A stretch of DNA of 64,000 bases from the NCBI RefSeq assembly GCF_046119375.1, contig NW_027362773.1:236220001-236284000 (forward strand). The letters are read 5' to 3'. A program made the translations under genes and the position numbers. Below are positions 13,534-64,000 of this stretch, piece after piece (within the stretch, counting starts at the first letter, position 1; the number at the start of each line of letters is the position of its first letter). The stretch is from Phyllobates terribilis. Taxonomy: Eukaryota. The notes below the pieces were generated by a model. The model saw only the letters and a program-made list of their open reading frames with translations. It did not search any database and was not told the origin of the DNA.

Positions 13534-13546
13534 CCTCCCCCTATAC
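13534..13546 (-). promoter_or_regulatory. Polypurine tract
   Basis: Minus strand TATAGGGGGGAGG abuts the 3' LTR and overlaps the ORF stop codon. Confidence 0.8.
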
Positions 13547-18610: not shown

Positions 18611-18733
18611 ACCTTGTTATACTTTTAGCCTGACCGTCTAATGTTGGGCTGACCTTAAGACTCCAGCAGTGGAAGTTACCACTGGCAGTCTTTAGTGCCT
18701 GGGAGTAGGGGTCCCACAACACTATTATTCTGC

Positions 18734-18754
18734 AATCCCACCGCTCTGCCACCA
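18734..18754 (-). promoter_or_regulatory. Primer binding site resembling tRNA-Leu(AAG/TAG), with a 2-nt insertion
   Basis: Minus strand TGGTGGCAGAGCGGTGGGATT, 1 nt from the 5' LTR. The recalled tRNA-Leu complement is TGGTGGCAGCGGTGGGATT. Confidence 0.7.
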
Positions 18755-18755
18755 A

Positions 18756-20237: not shown

Positions 20238-20481
20238 ATGGCCTAATAGGATCAGTGCTGCACACTGCTACAAAGCCCAAATTATTTTCCAGTCAAGATA
20301 CAGATAAACATGATTAGTAATTTTAAATCTGGTGGAGCTTATTATAGATGGCCTAATAGAATCAGTGCTGCACACTGCAACAAAGCCCAAATTATTTTCC
20401 AGCCAAGATACAGATAAACATGATTAGTAATTTGAAAGCTTAAAACGGTTGGTAGGGTGATTTTAACCAATCATCCAGCTT

Positions 20482-23400: not shown

Positions 23401-24182
23401 TCCACCTCCTCTGCTGACCTCATCTCTTGGCTGACTGTGGGTTGACAGTAATTGGGATCTCCAACCTCATCATCATCACCCTGTGCGTTATCACACCCGT
23501 CGTCCTCAGAGCCAACCTGTTCCTGCCCTGACAAAAAACTAAAGTTGTCGCTCCAATCAGGTATTTGAGTCTTATCATCGTCTTCCTCATTGTCTCCACC
23601 AACAGGAGTTACAGTTTGGGAATGAGGGTCTACATTATGGTCAGAACCTTCTGCGTCTGGTCCTGGATCCGACTCATAAAGATTCTGGGCATCAGTGCAG
23701 ATCATTTCCTCGTCTGGATTCACAGAAGCGCTGGAGTCGACCTCTGATTCCCAGGCTATAGTATGAGTAAACAGCTCTGCAGACTCAACCATCTGTTCTA
23801 CCTCATACTCAGATGGGCAGCTGGAGATTTGGGAGCTGTGAGGAAGCAAGTGCGATTGGGGTGACACCTTTGAGGACTGGAGTATTTGTGATGTTGAAGT
23901 TGATGTGGAGGAGAGCCCACTTAAAGGAGCACTTGATATCCGTTGAAGCACCTGCTGTTTTTGTGCCTCATCTGGAATTTGTAGCGATTGGCGTGGCCGT
24001 AAGAAAGGGATCTTATCACATTGTCCGCTAAAAGAAGTAGACATTTTAGTTTGGCTGGAAGATGGTCTTTCTTCTGCAGATGTTACTGTTGCTTTAACAC
24101 CTACCCCACGGACACAACCTTTTTTCCCCTTCCCAACACGCCTATTCCCCTTTCCACCAGCAGCAGGCCTTTTTCCACTCAT
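20482..24182 (-). pseudogene. hAT family B transposase (BED zinc finger, DDE, dimerisation domain), left copy
   Basis: W.FF...CNIC...H-x4-H; HFTTDTWTS; AVCDNAAN; CMAH; RWNST; SERVFS. Lesions: 1-nt deletion ~23025, TGA at 21865-21867, TAA at 20734-20736. Confidence 0.95.
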
Positions 24183-24289
24183 TTTGGTGGTTAACTAATT
24201 AACAACTCTGGAGTTGTTTGCACAAAAAAACAATGGATGGGAACCGAGCAGAGCTGAGTGGCCAAACTGTGGTATTAGGCCAAAACTAT

Positions 24290-25099
24290 TGGCTGGGTTA
24301 GATGCAGAAAAAAATTATATTCAATTTGCAACCTGATGGAGGTCAGTATAGATGGACTAATAGAGAAAGTCCCACACACTGCTAGAAGGCCAAATATTTT
24401 TTCAGAGCTAGATGCAGATAAAAATTATTTTTAATTTGCAACCTGATGGAGGTCAGTATAGATGGACTAATAGAGAAAGTCCCACACACTGCTAGAAGGC
24501 CAAATATTTTTTCAGAGGTAGATGCAGAAAAAAATATATTCAGTTTGCAACCTGATGGAGGTCTGTATAGATGGATTAATAGAACAAGTCCCACACACTG
24601 CTAGAAGCCCAATATTTTTTCAGAGGTAGATGCAGAAAAAAATATATTCAGTTTGCAACCTGATGGAGGTCAGTATAGATGGACTAATACAACAAGTCCC
24701 ACACACAGCTAGAAGCCCAATATTTTTTCAGAGGTAGATGCAGAAAAAAATATATTCAGTTTGCAACCTGATGAAGGTCTGTATAGATGGATTAATAGAA
24801 CAAGTCCCACACACAGCTAGAAGCCCAATATTTTTTCAGAGGTAGATGCAGAAAAAAATATATTCAGTTTGCAACCTGATGGAGGTCAGTATAGATGGAC
24901 TAATACAACAAGTCCCACACACAGCTAGAAGCCCAATATTTTTTCAGAGGTAGATGCAGAAAAAAATATATTCAGTTTGCAACCTGATGGAGGTCTGTAT
25001 AGATGGATTAATAGAACAAGTCCCACACACAGCTAGAAGCCCAATATTTTTTCAGAGGTAGATGCAGAAAAAAATATATTCAGTTTGCAACCTGATGGA
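24290..25099. repeat. ~110-bp tandem array upstream of the family B ATG (~7 copies, truncated)
   Basis: GTCCCACACA..GCTAGAAG.CC recurs every 109-110 bp. Confidence 0.95.
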
Positions 25100-41386: not shown

Positions 41387-44300
41387 TAGAGATGAGCGGT
41401 GTTCGACTAGAAGTGTTCGCCAATCTCAAATTCGAGCTGTTTTGGGCAGTGTTCGAGTTGTTCGACAAACCCGAACGATTTGCAAAAAATTTGGCTGTTC
41501 GAGGTTATGTTCGATAACTGTTCGTGCACCAAAAGCGTGTCCTGCATGTCTGGCGCTATTTTGAGCACCAATCATGCAGGGATTGCCTGCCACTCACTGT
41601 AATGCCACAGCCATGGTGGTTGTGGCATTACAGTGATTGCCCAAATCAATGGGAACAGTGCCAACAGTGAAACATGAAAAGCGGCAATTCAGCAGCGGCT
41701 TAGACCGGTACCCGACAATTTAGAACAGAAAGAATAGAGCATCACACATAGATTAGATAGATAGAAACAAGTCAGCCACATATATACGAAGTACAGTGAC
41801 AGTGTTGCTTACTGTACTTGTCATTTAGTGTAAAGGATTTATAAAAAAAAATAATAGTGTTTTCATGCACCGTCTCTTTAAAAAAGCTGGCCGGCAATTC
41901 AGCAGCGGTACCCGACAATTTAGAATAGAAAGAATAGAGAATCACACATAGATTAGATAGATAGAAACATGTCAGTCACATATATATGAAGTACAGTGAC
42001 AGTGTTGCTTACTGTACTTGTCATTTAGTGTAAAGGATCTATTAAAAAAAATAATAGTGTTTTCATGCACTGTCTCTTTAAAAAAGCCGGCCGGCAATTC
42101 AGCAGCAGTACCCGACAATTTAGAATAGAAGGAATAGAGAATCACACATAGATTAGATAGATAGAAACATGTCAGTCACATATATATGAAGTACAGTGAC
42201 AGTGTTGCTTACTGTACTTGTCATTTAGTGTTAAAATAAAGGATTTATTTAAAAAAAAAATTGGCGTGGGGGTCCCCATAATTTTAGGCTCTAGTGGAGG
42301 TTAAGCAGACAGCTGGGGCCTATGTTTGAAGCCTGGAAGGGGGGTAATACCCATGGAGCTTCACAGGCAACTAATATCAGCCCCCAGCTGAATACCTAGC
42401 CTTTACTAGCTATTAAAATGGGGGACCCCCCCAAAAAAAATGACGTGGGGTCCCCCCTATTTTAATAGCTAGCAAAGGCTAGGCAGACAGCTGGGGGCTG
42501 ATATTAATAGCCCAGGAAGGGTGCCATGAATATTGGCCCCCTCCCAGGCTAGAAACACCAGCCGTCAGCCGCCCCAGAACTGGCGCATCCATAGGATGCG
42601 CTAATTCTGGCACTTAGCCTCGCTCTTCCCACTGCCCTGTAGCGGTGGCAGTGGGGTAATAGGGCTGGGGTTGATGTCAGCTTATAATGCCAGCTGACAT
42701 CAAGCCCAGGTTAGTAATGGAGAGGCATCTAAAAGACACCCCCATTACTAATCCCATAGTCAAAGTTAAAAGAAAACACAAACATCCAGAATAAACTCCT
42801 TTAATTGAAATAAAGACACATTCCTTTATTGTTCTAAATTAAACCATACTTACCACCACGCCCATTCCAGCTGAAGCCAACGATCTCCTGCAATAAAAGT
42901 AAAATAATAAAGCAACATCATCCTTACCTTTCCATGGTTCCCACGACAGCTTCAGCTCTGCTACATCGAGATGACAGGCTGGACCGCAGCAGAACGCTGC
43001 CATCCAGCTTGCCATGCCGCAGACACTGAGAAGCGCAGGCATGCTTGCGCTCCTCAGTGTCTCGCTGTGACGGCATAAAGATGAGACGAGTTCATGTCCA
43101 ATGAACTCAGCTCACCTCATGCACGTCACTGACAGTTTGGGAGAATTCTCACGCTGAAGCGCTGAGTGCAGGAGAATTTTCCCACGCTGTCAGTGACGTG
43201 CATGAGGCTGATATTTAAATTTGGTGCCCAAATCGGTGATTGGTCGCGGGCAGCGTCCGCGACCAATCAGCACAGTAGTGTTTAACTTTGGCGGCAAGAT
43301 CAGTGATTGGTCACGGTCAAGCCTGTCATCTCGATGTCCAGCCTGTCATCTCGATGTAGCAGAGCTGAAGCTGTCCTGGGAACCATGGAAAGGTAAGGAT
43401 GATGTTGGTTTATTATTTTACTTTTATTGCAGGAGATCGTTGGCTTCAGCTGGAATGGGCGTGACGGTAAGTATAGTTTAATTTAGAACAATAAAGAATT
43501 GTGTGTTTATTTCAATTAAAGGACTTTATTCTGGGTGTTTGTGTTTTCTTTTAACTTTGACTATGGGGTTAGTAATGGGGGTGTCTTATAGACGCCTCTC
43601 CATTACTAACCTGGGCTTGATGTCAGCTGGCATTATAAGCTGACATCAACCCCAACCCTATTACCCCACTGCCACCGCTACAGGGCAGTGGGAAGAGCGA
43701 GGCTAAGTGCCAGATTTGGCGCATCCTACGGATGCGCCATTTCTGGGACAGCTGACGGCTAGTGTTTCTAGCCTGGGAGGGGGCCAATATTCATGGCACC
43801 CTTCCTGGGCTATTAATATCAGCCCCCAGCTGTCTGCTTAGCCTTTGCTAGCTATTTAAATAGGGGGGACCCCACGTCATTTTTTTGGGGGGGTCCCCCA
43901 TTTTAATAGCTAGTAAAGGCTAGGTATTCAGCTGGGGGCTGATATTAGTAGCCTGGGAAGCTCCGTGGGTATTACCCCCTTCCCAGGCTTCAAACATCTG
44001 CCCCAGCAGTCTGCTTAACCTCCGCTAGAGACTAAAATTACTGGGAACCCCACGCCAATTTTTTTTTTAATAAATCCTTTATTTTAACACTAAATGACAA
44101 GTACAGTGATCAACACTATCACTGTACTTCTTATATATGTGACTGACATGTTTCTATCTATCTAATCTATGTGTGATGCTCTATCTTTCTATTCTAAATT
44201 TTCGGGTACCGCTGCTGAATTGCCGGCCGGCTTTTTTAAATAGACGGTGCACGAAAACACTATTATTTTTTTTAATAAATCCTTTACACTAAATGACAAG

Positions 44301-44668
44301 TACAGTAAGCAACACTGTCACTGTGCTTCTTATATGTGTGACTGACATGTTTCTATCTATCTAATCTATGTGTGATGCTCTATTCCTTCTTGTCTAAATT
44401 GTCGGGTACCGGTGTATGCCGCTGCTGAATTGCCGGCTGGCTTTTTTAAAGAGAGCGTCTTCTGAGCAGTTTGTCAGCTTTTGGACACCTTTGAAGGTGT
44501 TTTCTATGTGTTTCTATGTGTTTTTGTTTGCCTGCCATTGGTTTTAACGGTGTTCGACGGTGTTCTAAGGTGTTCGACGAACAGTTCGACGAACAGTTCC
44601 TCGAACATCTCGGTGTTCGACGAACCGAACCGAACCCGAACACTACCTACGGGGGTGGCTCAACACTA
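41387..44668 (+). mobile_element. Complete non-autonomous family B derivative (3282 bp) with long internal inverted repeats
   Basis: TAGAGATGAGCGG at 41387 and GGCTCAACACTA ending at 44668; 8-bp TSD GTGAGGAG (41379-41386, 44669-44676). Arms ~41680-42975 and ~43330-44445 contain ~200-bp tandem units. Confidence 0.95.
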
Positions 44669-48299: not shown

Positions 48300-49194
48300 T
48301 AGAGATGAGTGGTGTTCGAGTTGAACTGTTCGCCAATCTCAAATTCGAGTAGTTTTGGGCAGTGTTCGAGCCGTTCGGCGAACACGAACGATCTGAAAAA
48401 AATTCGGCTGTTCGAGGTTATGTTCGACAACTGTTCGTGCACCAAAATCATAACTGGATTTTTTCTCAGTAATGATGAAAATTAATGTTAATATGCAGTT
48501 GGAGTGTACAGCGGGGCGGGGGGAGGGGCAGGGGATGGATCTCTGCAGGAATAATGAAGATCTCCATTTTTTTTCTCTTTCCCGCATTTACAGTGGGGAG
48601 GTGCAATCTGTCAGCCTATCAACAGCGCACCCACGGAGAGAAGTGCTTTTTTTCACACAAGCAAGGGCATGTGTCATTGGCAGTGTATGTCACATGTCCT
48701 TGCCATATAAGACCCAGCCATTTTCCCCGTCGCCACCATTTTCTCACTGCTGCAGCTGCGTGTTAGACGGCACCGCTGTTGCTGTGTGCGCTATACCTTG
48801 TTAATTTCTAGCCAATTTTCGCACAAATCTACAGATAGCTTGGGAGTAGGGAATAGTTGTGATTGCAGTCCTTTTAAGGACTAGGTTACAGCATTTCCTA
48901 CGACTTTTATCAGGCAGGTCTGTGCTCTTAAATAGATAGGTTGGGAGTAAAGACTAATTGTAATTGCAGTCCTTTTCAGGACTAAGTTAGATCAGTTCCT
49001 ATCAGTTTTTGCCAGGCAGGTCTGTGCCAGTTTTTTTCACAGCATTTGGCTAAATCTAGCAAAGCTAATCCTTTTCGGCCTATTGCAGAGTGTGTTAGTC
49101 AGTGGAGTAGAGTATCTGTGTTGCAAGCTACACCACCTGTGTATAGAATACCAATTTTTTTACTGTACCTAGTGAAGTAAAACCTTTTGGGCAT

Positions 49195-50582
49195 AGCATC
49201 ATTCTATTAGTCCATCTATACTGACCTCCATAAGGTTGCAAATTGAATATAATTTTTTCTGCATCTACCTCTGAAAAAATATTTGGGCTTCTAGGTGTGT
49301 GTGGGACTTGTTCTATTAGTCCATCTATACTGGGGTTTGCCGCGGAGTGCCACTCACACTAGCTGCTGCAGACACAGGTACGCTATACATCTTTTCTATA
49401 TACAATTTTCTCTAATTGATTGTACGTTGCCCCTTTGGTATGGCTTGTACATATATATTGGATATTTGATATAGATATGGTCAGTATTATAGTACATATA
49501 GTACTTCTATATATGTTGGTTGAATATATTTCTAATATTTGTACCTGTTGTATTACCATTATGTTTTTTGTATTATGCAGCTCATCATGTAAATTTTACT
49601 CTGTGATTTATTTCTGTGTTTTGGACTCTACAATGCGGCCTTCTCTTTGCATGTAGTGCCACTTGTTACCCTTACCTAATAAAGTGATTTATTTAATCCT
49701 TTGTATGATTGGACCTATCATTCGGTGGTTCTCTTTTTTCCATATTAGTCCATCTATACTGACCTCCATCAGGTAGCAAATTGAATATAATTTTTTTCTG
49801 CATCTAGCTCTGTAAAAATATTTGGGCTTCTAGCTCTGTGTGGGACTTGTTCTATTAGTCCATGTATACTGACCTCCATCAGGTTGCAAACTGAATATAA
49901 TTTTTTTCTGCATCTACCTCTGAAAAAATATTTGGGCTTCTAGCTGTGTGTGAGACTTGTTCTATAAGTCCATCTATACTGACCTCCATCAGGTTGCAAA
50001 TTGAATATAATATTTTTCTGCATCTAGCTCTGAAAAAATATTTGGGCTTCTAGCTGTGTGTGGGACTTGTTCTATTAGTCCATCTATACTGACCTCCATC
50101 AGGTTGCAAATTGAATATAATATTTTTCTGCATCTAGCTCTGAAAAAATATTTGGCCTTCTAGCAGTGTGTGGGACTTGTTCTATTAGTCCATCTATACT
50201 GACCTCCATCAGGTTGCAAATTGAATATAATATTTTTCTGCATCTAGCTCTGAAAAAATATTTGGCCTTCTAGCAGTGTGTGGGACTTGTTCTATTAGTC
50301 CATCTATACTGACCTCCATCAGGTTGCAAATTGAATATAATTTTTTTCTGCATCTACCTCTGAAAAAATATTTGGGCTTCTAGCTGTGTGTGGGACTTGT
50401 TCTATTAGTCCATCTATACTGACCTCCATCAGGTTGCAAATTGAATATAATTTTTTTCTGCATCTACCTCTGAAAAAATATTTGGGCTTCTAGCTAAGTG
50501 TGGGACTTGTTCTATTAGTCCATCTATACTGACCTCCATCAGGTTGCAAACTGAATATAATTTTTTTCTGCATCTAACCCAG
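49195..50582. repeat. ~110-bp tandem array (~9 copies) of family B copy 3
   Basis: Period 110 (e.g. 50041 and 50151). Confidence 0.95.
49333..49742 (+). mobile_element. 410-bp insertion with a 19-bp TSD, probably the 3' end of a non-LTR or Penelope-like retroelement
   Basis: TATTAGTCCATCTATACTG at 49314-49332 and 49743-49761; AATAAA near 49677; AT-rich and non-coding. Confidence 0.7.
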
Positions 50583-50692
50583 ACAATAGTTTTGGCCTAA
50601 TGCCACAGTTTGGCCACTAAGCTCTGCTCGGTTCCCATCCATTGATTTTTTGGGCAAACAACTCCAGAGTTGTGAATTAGTGAACCACCAAA

Positions 50693-53049
50693 ATGAGTGG
50701 AAAAAGGCCTGCTGCTGGTGGAAAGGGGAATAGGCGTGTTGGGAAGGGGAAAAAAGGTTGTGTCCGTGGAGTAGGTGTTAAAGCAACAGTAACATCTGCA
50801 GAAGAAAGACCATCTTCCAGCAAAACTAAAATGTCTACTTCTTTTAGCTGACAATGTGATAAGATCCCTTTCTTACGGCCACGCCAATTGCTACAAATTC
50901 CAGATGAGGCAAAAAACAGCAGGTGCTTCAACGGATATCAAGTGCTCCTTTAAGTGGGCTCTCCTCCACATCAACTTCAACATCACAAATACTCCAGTCC
51001 TCAGAGGTGTCACCCCAATCGCACTTGCTTCCTCACAGCTCCCAAATCTCCAGCTGCCCGTCTGAGTATGAGGTAGAACAGATGGTTGAGTCTGCAGAGC
51101 TGTTTACTCATACTATAGCCTGGGAATCAGAGGTCGGCTCCAGTGCTTCTGTGAATCCAGACGAGGAAATGATCTGCACTGATGCCCAGAATCTTTACAA
51201 CAGCCAGCCCTCAGTCCCTCAGATGTGGACAAGTAAAAGACCATTTCCTCCTAGCCATGAGAAGGCTAAGAGGTTGAATTTCACCATCTGCAAGCTCTTG
51301 GCTACAGAAATGCTGCCTTTCCGCCTGGTGGACACAGAGGATTTTCGAGACCTTTTGTCCGTCGCAGTGCCCCAGTACCAGATGCCCAGTCTGCACTACT
51401 TCTCAAAGAAAGGTGTGCCTGCGCTCCACCAGCATGTCGCACACAACATCACCGCTTCTTTGAGAAACTCTGTGTGTGACAGGGTGCATTTCACCACAGA
51501 CACTTGGATGAGTAGGCATGGACAGGGGCGTTACATGTCGCTGACTGGGCACTGGGTAACTATGGTGACAGCAGGACAAGGGGCTGCTGTCCAAGTCTTG
51601 CCGTCCCCACGAGTTGTGCGTCAATCCTCTTTATGTCAAAGTTCCTCCACTGCGTCTGCCTCCTCAACCTCCTCTCGGTCCTCCACCTGCACCCAAAGCC
51701 TGTCTGGTCATGCCACAAGCTTTCTAACTGCGCAGAAGGGATCCTGCAAACCTCCTTACTATGCTGTCAGTAGGACTCAACGTCATCAGGCGGTTTTTAC
51801 TTTGAAATGTCTGCGAAATGTGAGTCACACAGCTGAGGAGTTGTGGTCAGCTCTGGAGAACCAATTTCATGAATGGTTGTCTCCACTTGACCTGAAACCA
51901 GGGAAGGCCGCGTGCGACAATGCTGCAAACCTGGGTGCGGCCCTTCGCCGGGGCAATGTCACACACGTGCCTTGTATGGCTCACGTGTTGAACCTGGTTG
52001 TCCAGCAATTTTTAGCCCACTATCCCAGACTAGATGGCCTTCTGCAGAGGGCACGGTTGCTGTGTGCTCACTTCCGCCGTTCGCATCCCGCAGCTCAGCG
52101 ACTTACAACTCTACAGAAGTCGTTGGGCCTGCCACTTCACCGGCTAAAATGCGATCTGCCTACCCGGTGGATTTCATCTCTGCACATGTTGCAGCAACTG
52201 TGGCAGCACCGACAAGCCCTGGTGCAATACGTTCTGACGTATAGCCTGGGCCATCGGGATCCAGAGGTGGGGCAAATCACGCTGGAGGAGTGGTCTCAGA
52301 TCAGGGACCTATGCACCCTTCTGCACAGTTTTGACATGGCGACGAAGATGTTTAGTGCTGACGATGCCATTATCAGCATGACTATTCCGGTGATTTACAT
52401 GCTGGAGCACATGTTAAACAGAATTCGGAGTCAGGTGGTGGCACAAGAGGAGGTGGAGGAAGTAGAGGAGGAGGAGTTGTATGCGGAAGGGCTAACATCT
52501 GCAAGGTCCAGACGGTCGGCAGCACCAAGGCGGCAGGCATGTGAGGGTGGGGGAGATGGTTTTACCAGGGCGCATGGTAGCAGCCAAACTAGTGAGGAAG
52601 GTGCAGGAGCCCAGGAAGAAGTGGAGGACGAACTGATGGAAGACTCATAAGATGAGGGAGACCTTGATCACATTTCTGTTGTGCGAGGTTGGGGGGAGAG
52701 GACAGAGGAAGGAAGCATGATTGTTATCTCGCCACCAACACAACAGGAACTTGGTGCTCCTGGATGCGCAACACACATGAGTGCCTTCTTGCTGCACTAC
52801 CTGCAACATGACCCTCGAATTGGGAGAATTAGAAATAATCCTGACTACTGGGTTGCCACACTGTTAGATCCCCAGTACAAAAGTAAATTTTCAGAAATAA
52901 TTCCTGCCATAGAAAGGGATGCACGAATGCAGGAGTATCAGCAGAGACTGTTGCAGAATCTTACATGTGCTTTTCCAAAAAACACCAGTGGTGCACGTAG
53001 TGAATCTCACAGTTCCAACTTGCCAACCGTGGGACAGTCAAGTGTTCAG
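50693..53049 (+). pseudogene. Family B transposase copy 3, with an in-frame 909-nt deletion, truncated by insertion
   Basis: ATG at 50693, TGA ~50850, 1-nt deletion ~50910, QNLY fused to NSQPS at ~51198 (BED finger lost), TAA at 52648-52650. Confidence 0.92.
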
Positions 53050-53959
53050 TAGAGATGAGCGTTGTTCTACTCGAACTGTTCGCCAATCTCAAATTCGAGC
53101 TGTTTTGGGCGGTGTTCGAGCCGTTCGGCGAACACGAACAATTTGAGAAAAATTCGGCTGTTCGAGGTTATGTTTGATAACTGTTCGTGCACCAAAATCA
53201 TAACTGGATTTTTTCTCAGTAATGATGAAAATTAATGTTAATACGCAGTTTGAGTGTACAGCGGGGTGGGGGGAGGGGCAGGGGATGGATCTCTGCAGGA
53301 ACAATGAAGATCTCCATTTTTTTTTCTCTTTCCCGCATTTACAGTGGGGAGGTGCAATCTGTCAGCCTATCAGCAGCGCACACACGGAGCGAAGTGCTTT
53401 TTTTCACACAAGCATGGGCATGTGTCATTGGCAGTGTATGTCACATGTCCTTGCCCTATAAGACCAAGCCATTTTCCCCGTCGCCACCATTTTCTCACTG
53501 CTGCAGCTGCGTGTTAGACGGCACCGCTGTTGCTGTGTGCGCTATACCTTGTTAATTTCAAGCCAATTTTCGCAAAAATATACAGAGAGCTTGGGAGTAG
53601 GGAATAGTTGTGATTGCAGTCCTTTTAAGGACTAGGTTACAGCATTTCCTACGACTTTTATCAGGCAGGTCTGTGCTCTTAAATAGATAGGTTGTGGGAG
53701 TAAAGACTAATTGTAATTGGAGTCCTTTTCAGGACTAGGTTACATCAGTTCCTATCAGTTTTTGCCAGGCAGGTCTGTGCCAGTGCTGTGCAAGTTTTTT
53801 TCACAGCATTTGGCTGAATCTAGCAAAGCTAATCCTTTTTGGCCTATTGCAGAGTGTGTTAGTCAGAGAGAAGCCTATCTGTGTTGCAAGATATACCACC
53901 TGTGTATAGAATACCAATTTTTTTACTGCACCTAGTGAAGTAAAATCTTTTGGGCATAG

Positions 53960-55803
53960 CATCATTCTATTAGTCCATCTATACTGACCTCCATCAGGTT
54001 GCAAACTGAATCTAATTTTTTTCTGCATCTAGCTCTGAAAAAATATTTGGCCTTCTAGCAGTGTGTCGGACTTTCTCTATTAGTCCATCTATACTGACCT
54101 CCATCAGGTTGCAAATTCAAAATAATTTTTATCTGCATCTACAGTACCTCTGAAAAAATATTTGGGCTTCTAGCTGTGTGTGGGACTTGTTGTATTAGTC
54201 CATCTATACTGACCTCCATCAGGTTGCAAACTGAATATATTTTTTTCTGCATCTACCTCTGAAAAAATATTGGGCTTCTAGCTGTGTGTGGGACTTGTTG
54301 TATTAGTCCATCTATACTGACCTCCATCAGGTTGCAAACTGAATATCTTTTTTTCTGCATCTACCTCTGAAAAAATATTGGGCTTCTAGCTGTGTGTGGG
54401 ACTTGTTGTATTAGTCCATCTATACTGACCTCCATCAGGTTGCAAACTGAATATAATTTTTTTCTGCATCTAGCTCTGAAAAAATATTTGGCCTTCTAGT
54501 AGTGTGTCGTACTTTCTCTATTAGTCCATCTATACTGATCTCCATCAGGTTGCAAATTAAAAATAATTTTTATCTGCATCTACAGTACCTCTGAAAAAAT
54601 ATTTGGCCTTCTAGCAGTGTGTCGGACTTTCTCTATTAGTCCATCTATACTGACCTCCATCAGGTTGCAAATTCAAAATAATTTTTATCTGCATCTACAG
54701 TACCTCTGAAAAAATATTTGGGCTTCTAGCTGTGTGTGGGACTTGTTGTATTAGTCCATCTATACTGACCTCCATAAGGTTGCAAACTGAATATATTTAT
54801 TTCTGCATCTACCTCTGAAAAAATATTGGGCTTCTAGCTGTGTGTGGGTCTTGTTCTATTAATCCATCTATACAGACCTCCATCAGGTTGCAAACTGAAT
54901 ATAATTTTTTTCTGCATCTAGGTCTGAAAAAATATTTGGCCTTCTAGCAGTGTGTCGGACTTTCTCTATTAGTCCATCTATACTGACCTCCATCAGGTTG
55001 CAAATTCAAAATAATTTTTATCTGCATCTACAGTACCTCTGAAAAAATATTTGGGCTTCTAGCTGTGTGTGGGACTTGTTGTATTAGTCCATCTATACTG
55101 ACCTCCATCAGGTTGCAAACTGAATATATTTCTTTCTGCATCTACCTCTGAAAAAATATTGGGCTTCTAGCTGTGTGTGGGACTTGTTGTATTAGTCCAT
55201 CTATACTGACCTCCATCAGGTTGCAAACTGAATATATTTTTTTCTGCATCTACCTCTGAAAAAATATTGGGCTTCTAGCTGTGTGTGGGACTTGTTGTAT
55301 TAGTCCATCTATACTGACCTCCATCAGGTTGCAAACTGAAAATATTTTTTTCTGCATCTACCTCTGAAAAAATATTGGGCTTCTAGCTGTGTGTGGGTCT
55401 TGTTCTATTAATCCATCTATACAGACCTCCATCAGGTTGCAAACTGAATCTAATTTTTTTCTGCATCTAGCTGTGAAAAAATATTTGGCCTTCTAGCAGT
55501 GTGTCGGACTTTCTCTATTAGTCCATCTATACTGACCTCCATCAGGTTGCAAATTAAAAATAATTTTTATCTGCATCTACAGTACCTCTGAAAAATTATT
55601 TGGGCTTCTAGCTGTGTGTGGGACTTGTTGTATTAGTCCATCTATACTGACCTCCATCAGGTTGCAAACTGAATATATTTTTTTCTGCATCTACCTCTGA
55701 AAAAATATTGGGCTTCTAGCTGTGTGTGGGACTTGTTGTATTAGTCCATCTATACTGACCTCCATCAGGTTGCAAATTGAATATAATTTTTTTCTGCATC
55801 TAA
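53960..55803. repeat. ~110-bp tandem array (~17 copies, 109/110/114-bp variants)
   Basis: TATTAGTCCATCTATACTGACCTCCATCAGGTTGCAAA recurs throughout; array ends ~115 bp before the ATG. Confidence 0.97.
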
Positions 55804-55918
55804 CCCAGCCAATAGTTTTGGCAAAATACCACAGTTTGGCCACTCAGCTCTGCTTGGTTCCCATCCATTGTTTTTTTGTGCAAACAACTCCAGAGTTGTG
55901 AATTAGTTAACCACCAAA

Positions 55919-58900
55919 ATGAGTGGAAAAAGGCCTGCTGCTGGTGGAAAGGGGAATAGGCGTGTTGGGAAGGGGAAAAAAGGTTGTGTCCGTGGGGTAG
56001 GTGTTAAAGCAACAGTAACATCTGCAGAAGAAAGACCATCTTCCAGCCAAACTAAAATGTCTACTTCTTTTAGCGGACAATGTGATAAGATCCCTTTCTT
56101 ACGGCCACGCCAATCGCTACAAATTCCAGATGAGGCACAAAAACAGCAGGTGCTTCAACGGATATCAAGTGCTCCATTAAGTGGGCTCTCCTCCACATCA
56201 ACTTCAACATCACAAATACTCCAGTCCTCAAAGGTGTCACCCAAATCGCACTTGCTTCCTCACAGCTCCCAAATCTCCAGCTGCCTGTCTGAGTATGAGG
56301 TAGAACAGATGGTTGAGTCTGCAGAGCTGTTTACTCATACTATAGCCTGGGAATCAGAGGTCGATTCCAGCGCTTCTGTGAATCCAGACGAGGAAATGAT
56401 CTGCACTGATGCCCAGAATCTTTATGAGTCGGATCCAGGACCAGACGCAGAAGGTTCTGACCATAATGTAGACCCTCATTCCCAAACTGTAACTCCTGTT
56501 GGTGGAGACAATGAGGAAGACGATGATAAGACTCAAATACCTGATTGGAGCGACAACTTTAGTTTTTTGTCAGGGCAGGAAAAGGTTGGCTCTGAGGACG
56601 ACGGGTGTGATAACACACAGGGTGATGATGATGAGGTTAGAGATCCCACTTACTGTCAACCCACAGTCAGCCAAGAGATGAGGTCAGCAGAGGAGGTGGA
56701 GGAAGATGCTAGTGACGACGAGGTCAGGTTGCGCCTTCCTGGACAGAGACGTAATACTGGAAGCACGTCAACAGCTGCATCCTCAAACACAACTCTGCCT
56801 CTCACCACAAGCCGTGGTGGCTCTTCAGGTCGCATGGGTGCTAAGCCTTTCATAGCCTGGGCATTTTTTCAGATCGATAAAGATGACCCAACTCGTGTTA
56901 TCTGTAACATTTGTCAGCAAAAGCTAAGTAGAGGCCAAAAAATACATAGTTTGAGTACTTCATGTATGAACCGGCACATGGACATGAAGCATAAGTTGCA
57001 GTGGGAAGCTCAGTGTGCTACAATGCGGCCTAGCCGGCCGGGCCAACCACCGTCTTCCATATCCTGTGCATCCGCGGCCTCTTCATCCTCTGTGACTGGG
57101 GGGACAGCAGTCACACCTGTTTTGGGGAGCAGACCTGCCACCTCTTTACCCGCAACAGCCAGCGTGATTGGCAGGTCATCATTTTCTTTGGAGGTGGTAA
57201 CACCAGCTGGTGTTGAGCGCTGTCCGACATCGATAGCACCACCTTTGGATCAAGGCAACCTAACATGTCCGCCTGCATCTTCCTCACAGACCGGCAGTTT
57301 GCCGGGGACACCCTTATCAACCCCGTCTAAGCACAATAGCCAGCCCTCGGTCCCTCAGATGTGGACAAGTAAAAGACCATTTCCTCCTAGCCATGAGAAA
57401 GCTAAGAGGTTGAATTTCACCATCTGCAAGCTCTTGGCTACAGAAATGCTGCCTTTCCGCCTGGTGGACACAGAGGATTTTCGAGACCTTATGTCCGTCG
57501 CAGTGCCCCAGTACCAGATGCCCAGTCGGCACTACTTCTCAAAGAAAGGTGTGCCTGCGCTCCACCAGCATGTCGCACACAACATCACCGCTTCTTTGAG
57601 AAACTCTGTGTGTGACAGGGTGCATTTCACCACAGACACTTGGACGAGTAGGCATGGACAGGGGCGTTACATGTCGCTGACTGGGCACTGGGTAACTATG
57701 GTGACAGCAGGACAAGGGGCTGCTGTCCAAGTCTTGCCGTCCCCACGAGTTGTGCGTCAATCCTCTTTATGTCAAAGTTCCTCCACTGCTTCTGCCTCCT
57801 CAACCTCCTCTCGGTCTTCCACCTGCACCCAAAGCCTGTCTGGTCATGCCACAAGCTTTCTAACTGCGCAGAAGGGATCCTGCACACCTCCTTACTATGC
57901 TGGCAGTAGGGCTCAACGTCATCAGGCGGTTTTTACTTTGAAATGTCTGGGAAATGTGAGTCACACAGCTGAGGAGTTGTGGTCAGCTCTGGAGATCCAA
58001 TTTCATGAATGGTTGTCTCCACTGGACCTGAAACCAGGGAAGGCCGTGTGCGACAATGCTGCAAACCTGGGTGCGGCCCTTCGCCGGGGCAATGTCACAC
58101 ACGTGCCTTGTATGGCTCACGTGTTGAACCTGGTTGTCCAGCAATTTTTAGCCCACTATCCCAGACTAGATGGCCTTCTGCAGAGGGCACGGTCGCTGTG
58201 TGCTCACTTCCGCCGTTCGCATCCAGCAGTTCAGCGACTTACATCTCGACAGAAGTCGTTGGGCCTGCCACTTCACCGGCTAAAATGCGATGTGCCTACC
58301 CGGTGGAATTCAACTCTGCACATGTTGCAGCGACTGTGGCAGCACTGACAAGCCCTGGTGCAATACGTTCTGACGTATAGCCTGGGCCAACGAGATTCAG
58401 AGGTGGGGCAAGTCACGCTGGAGGAGTGGTCTCAGATCAGGGACCTATGCACCCTTCTGCACAGTTTTGAAATGGCGACGAAGATGTTTAGTGCTGACGA
58501 TGCCATTATCAGCATGACTATTCCGGTGATTTACATGCTGGAGCACATGTTAAACAGAATTCGGAGTCAGGTGGTGGCACAAGAGGAGGTGGAGGAAGTA
58601 GAGGAGGAGGAGTTGTATGCGGAAGGGCAAACATCTGCAAGGTCCAGACGGTCGGCAGCACCAAGGCGGCAGGCATGTGAGGGTGGGGGAGATGGTTTTA
58701 CCAGGGCGCATGGTAGCAGCCAAACTAGTGAGGAAGGTGCAGGAGCACAGGAAGAAGTGGAGGACGAACTGATGGAAGACTCATCAGATGAGGGAGACCT
58801 TGATCACATTTCTGTTGTGCGAGGTTGGGGGGAGAGGACAGAGGAAGGAAGCATGATTGTTACCTCGCCACCAACACAACAGGGACTTGGTGCTCCTGGA

Positions 58901-59621
58901 TGCGCAACACACATGAGTGCCTTCTTGCTGCACTACCTGCAACATGACCCTCGAATTGTGAGAATTAGAAAATAATCCTGACTACTGGGATGCCACACTG
59001 TTAGATCCCCGGTACAAAAGTAAATTTGCAGAAATTATTCCTGCCATAGAAAGGGATGCACGCATGCAGGAGTATCAGCAGAGACTGTTGCAGAATCTTA
59101 CATGTGCTTTTCCACAAAATACCAGTGGTGCACGTAGTGAATCTCACAGTTCCAACTTGCCAACCGTGGGACCGTCAAGTGTTCAGCACTCAAACCGTAA
59201 CAGAACCACAGTATCTGCTGGTAACATCAATTTTGCGGAATCATTTCACCACTTTTTTAGCCCATCCTTTGCAAGGCCACAGGAGACAAGAAGTCTAACA
59301 CATAGTCAACGCCTAGAGACGATGGTACAGGAGTATCTCCAAGTAAACATTGAAGCCACGACTGTGTCACTGGACCCTTGCTCTTTTTGGGCTTCCAATC
59401 TGGATAAATGGCCGGAGCTAGCCACTTACGCCTTGGAGATCTTGTCATGCCCCGCAGCCAGCGTTCTGTCTGAACGTGTGTTCAGCACTGCTGGTGGTGT
59501 GCTGACAGATAAGCGCACGAGGCTCTCCACTGATAATGTAGACAGACTCACGTTCATAAAGATGAACAAATCATGGATCTGAAACGACTTTTCTACCCCT
59601 GTGTCATCCTGGGGAGAGTAA
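55919..59621 (+). pseudogene. hAT family B transposase, right copy (consensus 1233 aa)
   Basis: 809-aa ORF ends at a premature TGA (58346-58348). There is a +1 frameshift at ~58970 and a TGA at 59580-59582; the natural TAA is at 59619-59621. All hAT motifs are present. Confidence 0.95.
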
Positions 59622-59945
59622 AAGCTTGATGATTGGTTAAAATCACCCTACCAACCGTTTTAAGCTTTCAAATTACTAATCATATTTATCTGTATCTTGA
59701 CTGGAAAATAATTTGGGCTTTGTAGCAGTGTGCAGCACTGATCCTATTAGGCCATCTATAATAAGCTCCACCAGATTTAAAATTAAAAATAATGTTTAGT
59801 TGCATCTAGCCCGGAAAATAATTTTGGGGCTCCGAGATGCGCAAGACACATAAGTGCCTTCTTGCTGCACTACCTGCAGCATGACCCTCATATTGTCAGA
59901 ATTCGAAGTAACCATGACTACTGGGTTGCCACACTCTTAGATCCC

Positions 59946-61320
59946 CCAAACTTTTCGATCAACCTTTTCATTTTAATAAAGACCAAAAAAATGGTCATTT
60001 TTGAAATTATAAGCATTAGCAGGTTTTTTGAAACTGAAATCAAACAGTTTTCAACTCAAAACTTTATTGTAGGTGATGTTACATTTTCACATAGGACCCC
60101 TTGTTCGAAAGGAGCTTCTGAACTCTCTCGTCCATTGAATTTGTCAGGTTTTGGATGGTTTCTGCTTCAATTGTTTTGCATGAAGACAGAATACCCTCCC
60201 AGAGCTGTTGCTTAGATGTAAACTGCCTCCCGCCATCATAGACACTCCTTTTAATGATGCTCCAATGGTTCTGAATGGGGTAGAGGTCAGGGGAGCATGG
60301 GGGTCACACCATAAGTTTGTCCCCTTTTATGCCCATATCAGCCAGAGATGCAGATGTTTTATGTGCAGCATGAGATGGTGCATGGTCATGCAGAAAAATG
60401 ATCTTGCTGTGAAATACACGGTTCTTCTTCTTGAACCATGGCAGGAAGTGCTGTTTGAGAAAATCCACATACATTATGGAGTTCATCTTTAGCGCCTTCA
60501 GGGGTCCTAAAGGGGCCGACAATCTCTCTCCCCATGATTCCAGCCCAAAACATTACTCCACCTCCTCCTTGTTGGCGCTGTAGCCGTGTTTGCGTGGGGT
60601 GTCCATCAACCAGCCATCCTCCACTCCATCCATCTGGACCATCGAGCGCTGCACGGCACTCATCCGTGAACAAAACAGTTTTGAAATCAGTCTTCATGTA
60701 ATGTTTGGCCCACTGGAGCCGTTTCTGCTTGTGTGAAGTGGATAGAGGAGGTCGACAGGATGGCGTATGCACAGCTGCAAACCTCTGAAGGACCCTGCAT
60801 CTTGTTGTTCGGGGGACGTTTGAGGCACCAGCAGCTTCAAAAACTTGTCTGCTGCTATGACAAGGCTTTCTTGCCGCTGCTCTTTTAACCTGACGTAATT
60901 GCCTGTAGGAAAGAGTCCTCAATTTGCCTTTATCAGCACGCACACGTGTGTACTGTGAATCAGCTACATACTTCTTGATTGCCAAGACACTTCATCCTGA
61001 TCATCGCACAATGTTGATTGTAGTCATGCCTTGACCTAAACACTCCACAATTTGTTGCTTCTCAGCAGCCGACACATCCTTTTTCTTTCCCATTTTGGCA
61101 GAAAATGTAGGCTGCTTAATAATGTGAGAAAGCCTTCTTAAGTAGTCTTGCCTTTTATTGGACACACCTGCCAAACTAATTAGCACAGGTGTCTGCAATT
61201 GCTTACAGTGATATAAAGAGCCCTGACACACATCACCATCAATGAGTTTAACTGACAAACAAACAAATTCTTCCCTTATCACTCCTAAACACTTTTTGCA
61301 TAATAATTTGGAACGCAGTG
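59946..61320 (-). mobile_element. Tc1 element, cargo copy 2 (defective)
   Basis: TIR ...ATAATAATTTGGAACGCAGTG followed by TA at 61321. Transposase ORFs 60386-60985 and 60304-60522 carry the same lesions as 10481-11856. Confidence 0.92.
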
Positions 61321-61391
61321 TACATGTGCTTTTCCACAAAACACCAGTGGTTCACGTAGTGAATCTTACAGTTCTAACTTGCCAACCGTGG

Positions 61392-63212
61392 TCTGTATGG
61401 AATTGTTCAATAAAGGGCCCAAAATTAAGATAACATAGATGGAAGAGGTCTCTATGAATAGGAATTCCTAAGTATTTGATACCCTGTGAGGGCCAGGCAA
61501 AGGGAAAGTTGGACTGGATGGAATCCTATATGGATTTGGGGAGGGAGACATCGAGGGCCTCAGACTTCGCTGCATTGATTTTAAAATTTTACCATGTAAC
61601 AAAGTGATCTATTTCAGCCATAACAGCAGGGATGGATATATGTGATTGAGTGATATATACTAGGACATCATCAGCAAATAGAGAGCACTTGTACTCGGTG
61701 CCTCCCACCTCAATCCACCTAATATTGGGGTTATGGCGAATTGATGAGAGCAGGTGCTCCGTCACTAGGATGTATAAGAGAGGGGACAGAGGACATCCCT
61801 GCCTTGTCCCATTGGTGATTGTGAAAGGTGATGAAAATGTTCTGACGCACCCCCTGGGCCTTGGGACACCCGGAGCCGGACCCTTTTTGGTGGATGCTGG
61901 TGGTTGTAGTCTTCGTGGCGGCGACCCGGTTCCGTGGCTCAGGGCGGTCAAACCAGTGGCGGAACTATTTATGTGGTTTTGATGTTTAAATGTCCGACTA
62001 CACCACCCGTGGATTGCGGTCAGAGTGAACCGCCGCTACTGGGCAGACCGCTGAGGCTGGTGTTGTGGGTGCAGCAGAGCGTAGCATAACTCCCCACGGG
62101 AGGAGTATAGCCTCAGGGCAGTGTATGCGGAGGATGGGGGTGATGGTGCAGGGCAGCAGCAGTAACGACACGGAGTCAGTGATGCAGTCCAGGGCCTTTA
62201 CTCACAGTTCTTATTATCCAGACCACGTCTGCAGGTAACGACTGCCCACGTCGTACTGTGCTCACCAGGTGAGGGGCTCAGACAACTCCCAGATAACTTT
62301 GGAGCACTTCACAGGACCCCCTTTGTGTGTCCTTTGTCTGGCCTTTCTTACCAACACTTCTGTCCGGCTGCCTCGGGCCTCCTCTTGGTAAATTTGGCGC
62401 CAGTTTCCCTGACCCTATGTGGTGCCTTCCTAGCGGGTGTAGCGAGGGGCTGCGCCACATAAAATGTCAGAGCCTCCGGTTTCTAGCTGAGGGTCGTTTC
62501 CTGCCTCCACTAGTTTGGGGACCGGTCTCCCCCTTTGGCCTGACCCCTCCACGCAGGTGGATTCGGGCGTGCGGTGGAGACTCGCCCGTCCGCACCCCTG
62601 GGATCCCTTCATTCCTCGTTCCTGGAGCCTTCTCCGCTCCTCTTCCTTCCTTCTCCCTCTTCCAGGCCTGGGCCTCTGTTACTAGGCCCGCCTCCGGAGC
62701 AGAGCTCATGCAGAGCCCCTGCTCCCTGCCACTTCTGCTCAGACTTCTCTGCACTGAACTAAGATGGTGCCCACCTTTTATACTCCCTTCTCAATGCACC
62801 CAGGAACTGCTTCCTCCCTGCTCCTGCACTACAGGGTTCCCCTTCCTCAGTGTTCCCTCCCCCCACTCCAGCCAGGGACAGGGACTGTCGTGCCCATCTC
62901 AGGGGCATATTGGTCGCCCTGCCCCATGGCAATGTGGTGTAATGCATGCAGGTGTCGGGTCCTGATCCACACTCCATCCTTACCTGAGAGTGAGATATCA
63001 CACCTCTGGGTGAGGTGCAATACGTCTGTAGCAACCGAGCCCTCAGGGTGCTACAGTTCCATTTATCTTCAGCCTAGGTGACGTATTGCGATACAGGGCC
63101 GTGATTTTGGCTATAAAAGGGTCCCCTAGACCCCTACCCCAAGATTTTTAAGAGAATCATATATGGCGTGCCAGGAGACTCTATGGAATGCTTTCTCAGC
63201 ATCCATCGAGAG
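61392..63212 (-). pseudogene. L1-type RT fragment, cargo copy 2, split by a solo LTR
   Basis: GTRQGCPLSPLLY...LFADD in ORF 61589-61951 and DAEKAF block at ~63180-63212. Confidence 0.9.
61843..63055. mobile_element. Solo LTR (1213 bp), cargo copy 2
   Basis: TGACGCACC...GTGCTACA with GTTC duplication (61839-61842, 63056-63059). Confidence 0.88.
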
Positions 63213-63327
63213 TATCTAATTACAAATTTTTAACTGCATCTAGCCCAGGAAATACTTTGTGCCTAGTAGCAGTGTCTGCTAGTCAGCGGATTATCCCGGC
63301 TGTTAAGCAAGCTACACCACCTGTAGT

Positions 63328-63596
63328 TTAGACACTTAATTTTTTCAAAGGAAATGCTTCGGGACCATGGGATACTTAGTGAAGAGCAAAAGGAGGCACC
63401 CCAAGGCATAGGGACTGGGACTGGCAGTAGAATGCCTTGCGGTGGACAGCCGAGCTCGATCCTTATAAAAGCTTTTTAACTGCAGCAGCTTTAGTGGACG
63501 CTACTGGAGCTGGAATTACCGCGGCTGCTGGCATGAGACTTGCCCTCCAATAGATCCTTGTAAATGGATTTAAAGTGTATTCATTCAAATTAGAGA
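63328..63596 (-). pseudogene. Degenerate 18S rRNA fragment, cargo copy 2
   Basis: Reverse complement contains CCAGCAGCCGCGGTAATTCCAGCTCC and the flanking SSU blocks. Confidence 0.9.
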
Positions 63597-64000
63597 GACA
63601 ATTTAAATTAAAAAGCTTAGAGCTGCCTCCACCACAGGGGGGCTCGCTCGACCCACCAGCGGACAGGCACCAGTATTGGGAGAGGGGGGCTGGCCGTCAG
63701 GGTTCACCGCGGCTCTGGCACAAACCCGGCGACACGGAGGTGGCACGGGCAGGAGCGGACTGGCCGTGTCGGCTTCTCACTTTTTGGATTTTAGAAGGGC
63801 ATGACATGCCTATATCTTTGTCTCCCCCTCCTTTTACTCCTCCACCTCTTTTATTTTCGCATGACTATATGTACTTGTCACTTTTCCATGTGTTAGTTAT
63901 GTCTTCTGAGCAGTTTGTCAGCTTTTGGACACCTTTGAAGGTGTTTTCTATGTGTTTCTATGTGTTTTTGTTTGCCTGCCATTGGTTTTAACGGTGTTCG

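What the first reader, a model, noticed from the sequence alone, without database searches (positions are those of the whole stretch)
53050..64000. ~11-kb cargo-carrying hAT element that still had an intact transposase when it was copied
Seen: 53960-64000 and 7829-25099 are inverted copies with the same order: 110-bp array, transposase, hAT fragment, Tc1, L1, solo LTR, L1, 18S fragment, subterminal end. The TSD-flanked element 41387-44668 shows that TAGAGATGAG (53050) and TAGTGTTGAG (7731) are the two ends of one family. Cargo lesions are shared (Tc1 deletion, frameshift, W-to-stop, E-to-Q; L1 stop), while all six transposase lesions are private to one copy. Inference: a transposase-competent DNA transposon moved with ~4 kb of dead retroelement, Tc1 and rDNA cargo. 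Established: Pack-MULEs, Pack-CACTAs and Helitrons capture cargo but are usually non-autonomous. I do not know of an equivalent autonomous vertebrate hAT, but could not search.
Basis: partly seen in the sequence, partly recalled or inferred. Interest (0 to 1): 0.82.

Follow-up and report, generated by a model that had tools for sequence, protein, structure and literature searches.

The report
Frog jumping gene hauling junk DNA
A cut-and-paste jumping gene in a frog genome sits at two different insertion sites carrying the same 4,000-base patchwork of dead mobile-element and ribosomal DNA, and its own jumping enzyme gene was still unbroken when the copies split; this is a large, enzyme-carrying version of a cargo-hauling behaviour already known in frogs, and it carries no working host gene.

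Summary
B (53050 to beyond 64000, +) and A (7731-25099, -) are the same ~11-kb hAT composite, about 2% diverged. All cargo junctions and the Tc1/L1 lesions are shared; all six transposase lesions are private, and the catalytic residues are intact. The copies have different 8-bp flanks, each abutting a TIR and fitting the family's T2/A7 target pattern. B's left end interrupts a third copy (C, 48300-53049) at an empty site seen in A and B. One duplicated insertion is therefore unlikely; transposase-mediated copying is the best reading. The cargo is an old patchwork: sister-hAT fragments split by a Tc1, an L1 fragment split by a solo LTR, and decayed 18S. It was most likely captured already dead, shortly before the copies split. 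An intact ORF does not prove self-mobilisation, since DNA transposons move in trans; a missense deficit (31.5 seen, 52 expected, p about 0.02) only hints at selection. B's right TIR and TSD and genome-wide copy number could not be checked. Multicopy Pack-hATs are published for Xenopus tropicalis but are small and lack a transposase. Verdict: new variant of a known kind, moderate-low interest.

The parts
53042..53049 (+). 8-bp target half-site GTGTTCAG left of copy B (predicted TSD); lies inside the transposase gene of copy C
   Evidence: The same 8-mer followed by CACTCAAACCG is the uninterrupted site in the transposases of B (59179) and A; fits T2/A7
53050..53061 (+). Left TIR of copy B (TAGAGATGAGCG); 9 of 12 bases match the right TIR
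53050..53964 (+). Left subterminal arm; 8 GTTCG/CGAAC motifs in the first 150 bp against 0.19 expected; degenerate array units near its 3' end
   Evidence: 862 of 902 aligned bases identical to copy C's arm
53965..55802 (+). Tandem array of 108/110/115-bp units, about 16.6 copies, upstream of the transposase
55919..59621 (+). hAT transposase gene, 1233 codons when read through; BED finger, D573, D712, CxxH, W796, E1185, dimerisation domain; three private lesions (58346, 58969, 59580)
   Evidence: Pfam PF02892 and PF05699; Hermes match E 1e-5; frog homologues; conservation; lesions
59663..59823 (+). Diverged array-like units, about 75% identical to the left array; one more unit in copy A through a 116-bp duplication
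59824..59946 (+). Cargo: fragment of a sister hAT transposase (codons ~991-1030), 87-88% identical to the element's own gene, joined to the array-like unit at an imperfect microhomology
   Evidence: two of its residues match the outgroup P0191 rather than A/B/C
59947..61320 (-). Cargo: dead Tc1 transposon, one end deleted, the other end followed by TA; ORF 61093-60082 with shared micro-inversion, frameshift, W-to-stop and E-to-Q
61321..61391 (+). Cargo: second sister-hAT transposase fragment (codons ~1061-1084), 93-94% identical, colinear with the first; the Tc1 sits at its TA
61392..61842 (-). Cargo: internal L1 reverse-transcriptase fragment, downstream part, with a shared stop; no poly(A) or 3' end seen
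   Evidence: PF00078 E 1.7e-10
61843..63055 (.). Cargo: 1213-bp solo LTR (TG...CA) with 4-bp TSD GTTC, nested in the L1 fragment
   Evidence: a relative at 761-1064 is 81.5% identical
63056..63214 (-). Cargo: L1 reverse-transcriptase fragment, upstream part, with a shared frameshift
63215..63345 (+). Second diverged array-like unit, about 71% identical to the pre-array left arm
63346..63625 (-). Cargo: decayed 18S rRNA fragment (model positions ~495-730); boundaries approximate
   Evidence: Rfam RF01960, 78.9 bits, E 2.7e-19
63626..63780 (.). GC-rich 155-bp piece of unknown origin, shared by A and B
   Evidence: searches gave no identification
63781..64000 (+). Right subterminal arm of B, cut by the window edge; 63901-64000 is 100% identical to element D's arm; the 63781 boundary is approximate
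7731..25099 (-). Copy A of the composite: right TIR at 7731, cargo about 8049-11977, transposase 24182-20482, array truncated at 25099, left end lost
7723..7730 (-). 8-bp flank of A's right TIR (TTGCTGAC on the element strand); differs from B's flank; the adjoining DNA is single-copy in the window
12052..20237 (-). Later insertion into A only: full-length Ty3/Gypsy retrotransposon (SCAN, integrase before RT), 1691-aa open frame
48300..53049 (+). Copy C: older family member with a ~0.9-kb internal deletion, interrupted exactly at B's left TIR; whether it carries the cargo is unknown
41387..44668 (+). Element D: non-autonomous family member with both TIRs and a verified 8-bp TSD, filled by a nested fold-back element; it defines the two ends

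Best explanation
This is an anuran, most likely dendrobatid, hAT of the ZBED4/6-like (Ac-type) group. Step 1 (inferred): an active, transposase-encoding copy acquired about 4 kb of already-dead DNA between its transposase stop codon and its right subterminal arm. The likely route is gap repair or template switching into a nearby relic of a sister hAT that had earlier collected a Tc1, an L1 fragment with a solo LTR and an 18S piece. Step 2 (shown for the ends, inferred for the enzyme): both TIRs and the subterminal GTTCG repeats were kept, so hAT transposase could excise and reinsert the whole ~11-kb unit. The enzyme could be its own intact one or one supplied in trans. It landed at two or more sites, one of them inside the transposase gene of an older family member (C). 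Step 3 (shown): after insertion each copy decayed independently, with three private ORF lesions each, and A lost its left end and gained a Gypsy element. The cargo is a passenger with no evident function.
For: Different flanks abutting TIRs: GTGTTCAG at B-left, TTGCTGAC at A-right. B-left is a clean insertion into C, with the empty site visible in A and B. 4 of 4 flanks of this family have T at position 2 and A at position 7, against a 7.3% background (the nTnnnnAn consensus for Ac-type hATs is recalled, not found). All 11 junctions are shared. 6 of 6 ORF lesions are private and the catalytic residues are intact. Of 135 columns conserved in at least 90% of 27 named frog homologues, A and B jointly deviate at 8, and C shares all 8, so there is no A+B-specific damage. 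The cargo is older than the split: its hAT fragments differ from the element's own gene at 17 of 186 sites in both copies against 2.0% (79 of 3928) between the A and B cargo, and two of those residues match the outgroup. Cargo divergence (2.0%) equals synonymous divergence in the ORF (2.1%), so the cargo was not converted later than the ORF. If the ORF had decayed for as long before the split as after it, the chance of no shared lesion is about 0.01.
Against: Neither copy shows both ends; B's right TIR and TSD are beyond the window and A's left end is deleted. Only two cargo-bearing copies are visible, about 30 kb apart and inverted, which rearrangement models also predict. No cargo-free autonomous copy is available, so the native 3' arm is undefined and the array-like units may be native. 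The missense deficit (31.5 seen, 52.2 expected, p about 0.02) is not predicted by one-step capture followed by neutral decay. No source locus for the cargo could be looked for.
Confidence: 0.68

Rival explanations
1. Long-lived autonomous composite. The cargo built up and decayed stepwise inside a lineage whose transposase stayed under purifying selection, so the element effectively mobilised itself (cis preference, or one expressed source copy at a time).
For: Missense changes between A and B are fewer than the cargo mutation spectrum predicts: 31.5 vs 52.2 overall, 17 vs 32.3 codons in the core, while synonymous changes are as expected (18.5 vs 20.4); p about 0.02. Lineage A has dN/dS 0.35 (7 synonymous, 8 non-synonymous).
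Against: The within-ORF synonymous-fraction test is not significant (p 0.22-0.29) and ORF vs cargo overall gives p 0.08. Lineage B has dN/dS 0.77 and C 0.74. Nonsense changes are not depleted (4 seen, 2.9 expected). The cargo's hAT fragments share residues with an outgroup, which points to a sister-family relic. [quoted passage not shown]
Confidence: 0.12
2. Transposase-triggered rearrangement rather than a clean jump: alternative-end transposition between neighbouring hAT ends, or excision followed by gap repair from the other copy, put the composite interior between new flanks within this hAT nest.
For: The copies are close, inverted and in a region with repeated hAT-in-hAT nesting. A's left end is missing. 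For the fungal ToxhAT the authors prefer recombination at TIRs to transposition (PMC6737239, passages). Ac macrotransposition is recalled; that paper was not held.
Against: Both visible junctions are exact at the TIR and fit the target pattern. Equal age of cargo and ORF argues against cargo-only conversion.
Confidence: 0.16
3. Plain inverted segmental duplication of one hAT insertion that had collected nested junk in place, or an assembly artefact.
For: Only two copies are visible, nearby and inverted.
Against: One insertion has one TSD, yet A's right flank is TTGCTGAC and not GTGTTCAG. No similarity extends beyond A's TIR. The 2% divergence with many private lesions is too much for a mis-assembly. 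Old cargo lesions beside an intact ORF cannot arise by decay in place: about 1.4 nonsense changes are expected per 1% divergence.
Confidence: 0.04

Closest known systems
Multicopy Pack-TIRs of Xenopus tropicalis, e.g. Pack-hAT-N8_XT (Tan et al. 2021, PMC8277862; passages, methods section 14 and supplement search hits seen)
   Same: A frog hAT carrying foreign DNA between its TIRs, re-transposed to several sites with distinct TSDs; gap filling or template switching is the proposed capture route.
   Different: The element here is ~11 kb, keeps a full transposase gene and carries ~4 kb that is almost all dead transposon DNA.
ToxhAT of wheat-pathogenic fungi (McDonald et al. 2019, PMC6737239; passages)
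   Same: 14-kb TIR-bounded unit with a hAT-like transposase gene, cargo and a nested transposon.
   Different: Fungal; carries functional genes; 74-bp TIRs; no TSDs were found and the authors favour recombination. Here the TIRs are ~12 bp, an 8-bp TSD is verified for the family, and the cargo has no intact gene.
Plant Pack-TYPE elements including Pack-hAT (Gisby and Catoni 2022, PMC8903248; passages)
   Same: DNA captured between the TIRs of a hAT and moved with it.
   Different: Defined as non-autonomous and carrying host coding fragments; their pipeline classes anything with a transposase hit as autonomous, so an element like this one would not be called a Pack element.
Teratorn of medaka (PMC10175614 passages; PMC5601938 search listing)
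   Same: A vertebrate cut-and-paste element that keeps its transposase and transposition activity while carrying very large cargo.
   Different: piggyBac superfamily, 180 kb, and the cargo is a herpesvirus genome rather than dead fragments.
Canonical vertebrate hATs Tol1/Tol2 (4.4 and 4.7 kb) and anuran ZBED4/6-like transposases
   Same: BED finger, DDE/CxxH core, dimerisation domain, short TIRs, 8-bp TSD.
   Different: More than twice as long, with a 1.8-kb tandem array, a long low-complexity N-terminus (1233 codons in all) and a 4-kb cargo.

Membership tests
hAT superfamily | Transposase with BED finger, DDE triad, CxxH, conserved W and C-terminal dimerisation domain | tested here: met
   PF02892 E 7e-10 and PF05699 E 4e-16; Hermes E 1e-5; D573, D712, C731xxH734, W796 and E1185 present in A and B and conserved in 86-100% of the named homologues that cover each column
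hAT superfamily | Short TIRs (5-27 bp, PMC3517528 passage) | tested here: met
   9 of 12 bases match between the left end of B and the right end of A; both ends occur on one element in D
hAT superfamily | 8-bp target-site duplication | tested here: inconclusive
   Met for family member D, with an empty-site paralogue; for the cargo-bearing copies only one flank each is visible
hAT superfamily | Subterminal repeats at both ends | tested here: met
   8-12 GTTCG/CGAAC motifs per terminal 150 bp in 5 of 5 ends examined, against 0.19 expected
Ac (not Buster) branch of hAT | Target-site consensus and phylogenetic placement | tested here: inconclusive
   4 of 4 flanks fit nTnnnnAn (consensus recalled); 1 of 4 (C) also fits the Buster nnnTAnnn given. 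Hits are ZBED4/6-like proteins and Hermes. No tree against reference Ac and Buster transposases was built.
Pack-TIR (Tan et al. 2021) | Foreign sequence between the two ends of one TIR element | tested here: met
   Tc1, L1, LTR and 18S pieces lie between the family's left and right arms; the ends are seen on different copies
Pack-TIR (Tan et al. 2021) | Internal sequence of 100-5000 bp with a unique parental locus at 90% identity or more and no TE beside the parent | not testable with these tools
   No eukaryotic genome collection was available. The interior is ~10.6 kb including the transposase, beyond their cut-off.
Pack-TIR (Tan et al. 2021) | Multicopy with distinct TSDs | tested here: inconclusive
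   Two copies with different single flanks; no complete TSD pair
Pack-TYPE (plant definition) | Non-autonomous: no transposase | tested here: not met
   Full-length transposase gene, open at the A/B split
Pack-TYPE (plant definition) | Carries fragments of host protein-coding genes | tested here: not met
   Identified cargo is transposon-derived plus 18S rRNA; one 155-bp piece is unidentified
Autonomous element | Encodes a functional transposase that mobilises it | not testable with these tools
   Ancestral ORF open with intact motifs; both present copies are broken; activity needs an assay

The most novel reading that the evidence does not exclude
A long-lived, self-maintaining vertebrate hAT lineage that kept its transposase under purifying selection while carrying and amplifying 4 kb of captured DNA. 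It would be an autonomous Pack-hAT and an exception to the rule that DNA transposons evolve neutrally within a genome, and it would spread identical L1/Tc1/LTR/rDNA fossils around a giant frog genome.
Probability: 0.13. Interest if true: 0.7.

Novelty: new variant of a known kind. Interest (0 to 1): 0.38.

Why it matters
If more copies exist, it shows that natural vertebrate hATs move units of about 11 kb with kilobases of foreign DNA. Some repeat copies counted as L1, Tc1, LTR or rDNA insertions in giant frog genomes would then be passengers, which biases copy numbers and age landscapes. Pack-element pipelines miss such elements by design: Tan et al. cap the interior at 5 kb and packFinder classes transposase-bearing elements as autonomous. 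The neutral cargo is also a built-in clock for testing whether a DNA transposase is selected within a genome; with two copies the signal is only p about 0.02. No host gene is moved here, so the functional stakes are low.

Tried and rejected
Looked for A's missing left end or a second TTGCTGAC beyond 25099: none. The 8-mer occurs elsewhere only inside the transposases (23181, and as its complement at 56913), and 25100-27000 has no similarity to the family. Tested array units for an A+B clade against C: mean best-unit identity 0.945 (A-B), 0.945 (A-C), 0.937 (B-C), uninformative, although the 108-bp variant occurs in A and B and not in C's 3' units. Polarising with P0001: the outgroup sides with C against A+B at 1 of the 6 C-specific residues in that range, too few to resolve a stem. 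The GC-rich piece 63626-63780 gave no Rfam, tRNA or in-window match. Protein searches found no near-identical full-length family member: best hits 83% over 70% of the query, 74% over 100% and 89% over 52% (one search scored only the top 8000 candidates). Rejected the idea that the Tc1 5' lesion is a pair of frameshifts: it is a 35-bp inversion. Rejected cargo-only gene conversion because the cargo is not younger than the ORF. Literature: 10 searches, aimed at a transposase-bearing cargo hAT, returned 0 papers, and searches were dominated by irrelevant word matches. The library lacks most subscription papers, and Repbase/Dfam were not available, so absence from print is not established. The bacterial, plasmid and phage collections were not searched because they cannot hold a frog element. 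No eukaryotic DNA collection could be searched, so copy number stayed unchecked.
Full report
SETTING. The window is a dense nest of repeats from a frog. All of the best transposase relatives are anuran, led by poison frogs (Ranitomeya variabilis 83% over 70% of the query; Anomaloglossus 74% and R. imitator 89% over 52%). That placement is an inference from named relatives. In a dendrobatid assembly hAT makes up 3.9% and Tc1 6.6% of the sequence (PMC11152451, passages).

OBSERVATION. Self-BLAST shows B (53050 to the window edge) and A (7731-25099, minus strand) as inverted copies at about 97% identity. After removing a Ty3/Gypsy element inserted only in A (12052-20237; 5-bp TSD ATGGC; LTRs differ at 1 of 1482 sites), they align from the array to the right arm with 7 internal indels. 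All 11 segment junctions tested are shared, with 38-40 matches per 40-base window. Element D (41387-44668) carries both ends, an 8-bp TSD and an in-window empty site, so TAGAGATGAG and TAGTGTTGAG are the two ends of one family. A third copy, C (48300-53049), has the left end, the array and a deleted transposase, and stops exactly where B begins.

TRANSPOSASE. Read through, the gene has 1233 codons (55919-59621) with a BED finger and a dimerisation domain, matches Hermes and keeps D573, D712, CxxH, W796 and E1185. The six disabling changes are each private. Three are polarised by C; for the other three the second copy is open. The stop at codon 1221 trims only 12 residues, judged by the natural end of P0191. 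The majority reading has 0 stops. At 135 columns conserved in at least 90% of 27 named frog homologues, A and B jointly deviate at 8, all shared with C, so there is no sign of damage specific to the A+B ancestor. With six lesions on the two terminal branches, the chance of no shared lesion is 0.04 if the ORF had already been decaying for 0.65 times the A-B distance and 0.01 for an equal distance. The ORF was thus intact until shortly before the split.

CARGO. Between 59824 and 63780 lies a patchwork. Two colinear fragments of a related hAT transposase (87-88% and 93-94% identical to the element's own gene) flank a Tc1 that sits at a TA and has lost one end. An internal L1 reverse-transcriptase fragment is split by a 1213-bp solo LTR with a 4-bp TSD. 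A diverged array unit, a decayed 18S fragment (Rfam 78.9 bits) and an unidentified GC-rich piece follow. The Tc1 is 86% identical over 200 residues to a named fish protein. Both copies share its 35-bp inversion, frameshift, W-to-stop and catalytic E-to-Q; the L1 stop and frameshift are also shared. The hAT fragments differ from the resident gene at 17 of 186 sites in both copies, half of them synonymous (p 0.10 against neutral), and two residues match the outgroup P0191. They look like pieces of a sister subfamily, several times older than the 2.0% A-B distance (79 of 3928 sites). The simplest history is capture of an already-dead relic in one or two steps. The left junction shows an imperfect microhomology between the array-like unit and the transposase fragment. 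The capture mechanism is inferred; the donor could not be searched for.

DID IT JUMP? B's right TIR is outside the window and A's left end is deleted, so no complete TSD is visible. The window still tests segmental duplication. One insertion has one TSD, yet B is preceded by GTGTTCAG and A's right TIR is followed by TTGCTGAC. B's site is a clean interruption of C's transposase, whose unbroken form is seen in A and B. Nothing beyond A's TIR resembles anything else in the window. All four flanks of this family (A, B, C, D) have T at position 2 and A at position 7, a pattern found at 7.3% of window positions. That pattern matches the consensus I recall for Hermes/Ac-type hATs; some searches gave only the Buster consensus and the statement that the two branches differ in target choice. 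Both visible junctions therefore look transposase-made. Cargo divergence (2.0%) equals synonymous ORF divergence (2.1%), so the cargo was not pasted in later by conversion. Alternative-end transposition or gap-repair copying of the whole interior between neighbours cannot be excluded.

WAS IT AUTONOMOUS? An open ORF is necessary but not sufficient: vertebrate DNA transposons move mainly in trans and evolve neutrally within genomes (PMC7070016, passages). Using the cargo's mutation spectrum as the neutral model, I expected 20.4 synonymous, 52.2 missense and 2.9 nonsense differences between A and B and saw 18.5, 31.5 and 4. The missense deficit has p about 0.02 and is stronger in the core (17 vs 32.3) than in the N-terminus (14 vs 19.9). 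Against this, the synonymous-fraction test gives p 0.22-0.29, ORF vs cargo gives p 0.08, stops are not depleted, and over 784 three-way codons only lineage A is low (dN/dS 0.35; B 0.77; C 0.74). Several tests were tried, so this is a hint and not a result.

COMPARISON. It works like a multicopy Pack-TIR. Tan et al. (PMC8277862; passages, methods section and supplement hits) found 370 animal Pack-TIRs, 208 of them hAT, and 3 multicopy cases in X. tropicalis, including Pack-hAT-N8_XT with 291 bp of cargo and three TSDs. It is not a member by the plant definition, which requires no transposase and host coding cargo (PMC8903248, passages). ToxhAT is a 14-kb composite hAT in fungi without TSDs. Teratorn is a vertebrate precedent for a transposase-bearing element with cargo, in piggyBac. 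Ten literature searches found no vertebrate hAT with both a full transposase and kilobase cargo. The library is incomplete and no repeat database was available, so this is weak evidence of novelty. The neighbouring hAT family in this window also repeats a long composite 3' arm in three copies, which suggests that bulky arms are common in these frogs.

VERDICT. A real feature, correctly observed. Most likely a transposase-bearing hAT that picked up a block of dead DNA and was copied to at least two sites before decaying (0.68). It is a new variant of a known kind and moves no functional host gene. Interest 0.38; the autonomous, selected-lineage reading has probability about 0.13 and would merit 0.7.

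Noticed in passing
window 12052-20237 (-): Very young full-length Ty3/Gypsy retrotransposon with a single 1691-aa open frame (SCAN, zinc knuckle, integrase before RT and RNase H; the Gmr1-like label is recalled); LTRs differ at 1 of 1482 sites; 5-bp TSD.
   Followed up: partly
window 1-6693 and 40288-53049: Repeated hAT-in-hAT nesting: B in C's transposase, C in the 52-bp array of a second hAT family, D in that same family's arm, and one copy of that family ending at 3357 directly against another's transposase. May reflect a target preference or a tolerant region.
   Followed up: partly
window 1-3357, 4254-6693, 40288-48299: A second hAT family whose long 3' arm (133-bp and 52-bp arrays, 39-bp repeats and an inverted hAT transposase fragment at about 5547-5974 and 44717-44890) recurs in three copies at 86-93% identity: another composite arm that was copied as a unit.
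   Followed up: partly
window 45798-48277: 52-bp tandem array of about 48 copies inside a hAT arm, against about 10 copies in the paralogue at 4515-5044; looks like a transposon-borne minisatellite expanding.
   Followed up: no
window 41682-44454: Fold-back element nested in D with inverted arms of about 1.1 kb (93.8% identical) and 200-bp tandem units; a relative at 34357-34733. Not classified.
   Followed up: no
window 49333-49742: About 410-bp AT-rich insertion in copy C's array, single-copy in the window, resembling the 3' end of a retroelement.
   Followed up: no
window 60978-61012 and the matching site near 10800: 35-bp micro-inversion bounded by ATTG...CAAT inside the Tc1 ORF, shared by both copies.
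   Followed up: yes
window 59947-61320: The cargo Tc1 is 86% identical over 200 residues to a protein of the fish Metynnis hypsauchen, closer than to named frog Tc1 proteins (66% for Leptobrachium), which suggests a horizontally transferred Tc1 family.
   Followed up: no
protein hit P0194: A hAT dimerisation-domain protein of this group is annotated in Protopolystoma xenopodis, a flatworm parasite of frogs (48% identity): host contamination or horizontal transfer.
   Followed up: no
window 29647-30636 (-): Older, heavily decayed hAT transposase relic.
   Followed up: no
window 39096-39838 (-): Broken frames resembling a Penelope-type or related reverse transcriptase (label recalled from motifs; no Pfam hit at E 0.01).
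   Followed up: no
window 63626-63780: Unidentified GC-rich piece between the 18S fragment and the right arm, shared by A and B.
   Followed up: partly
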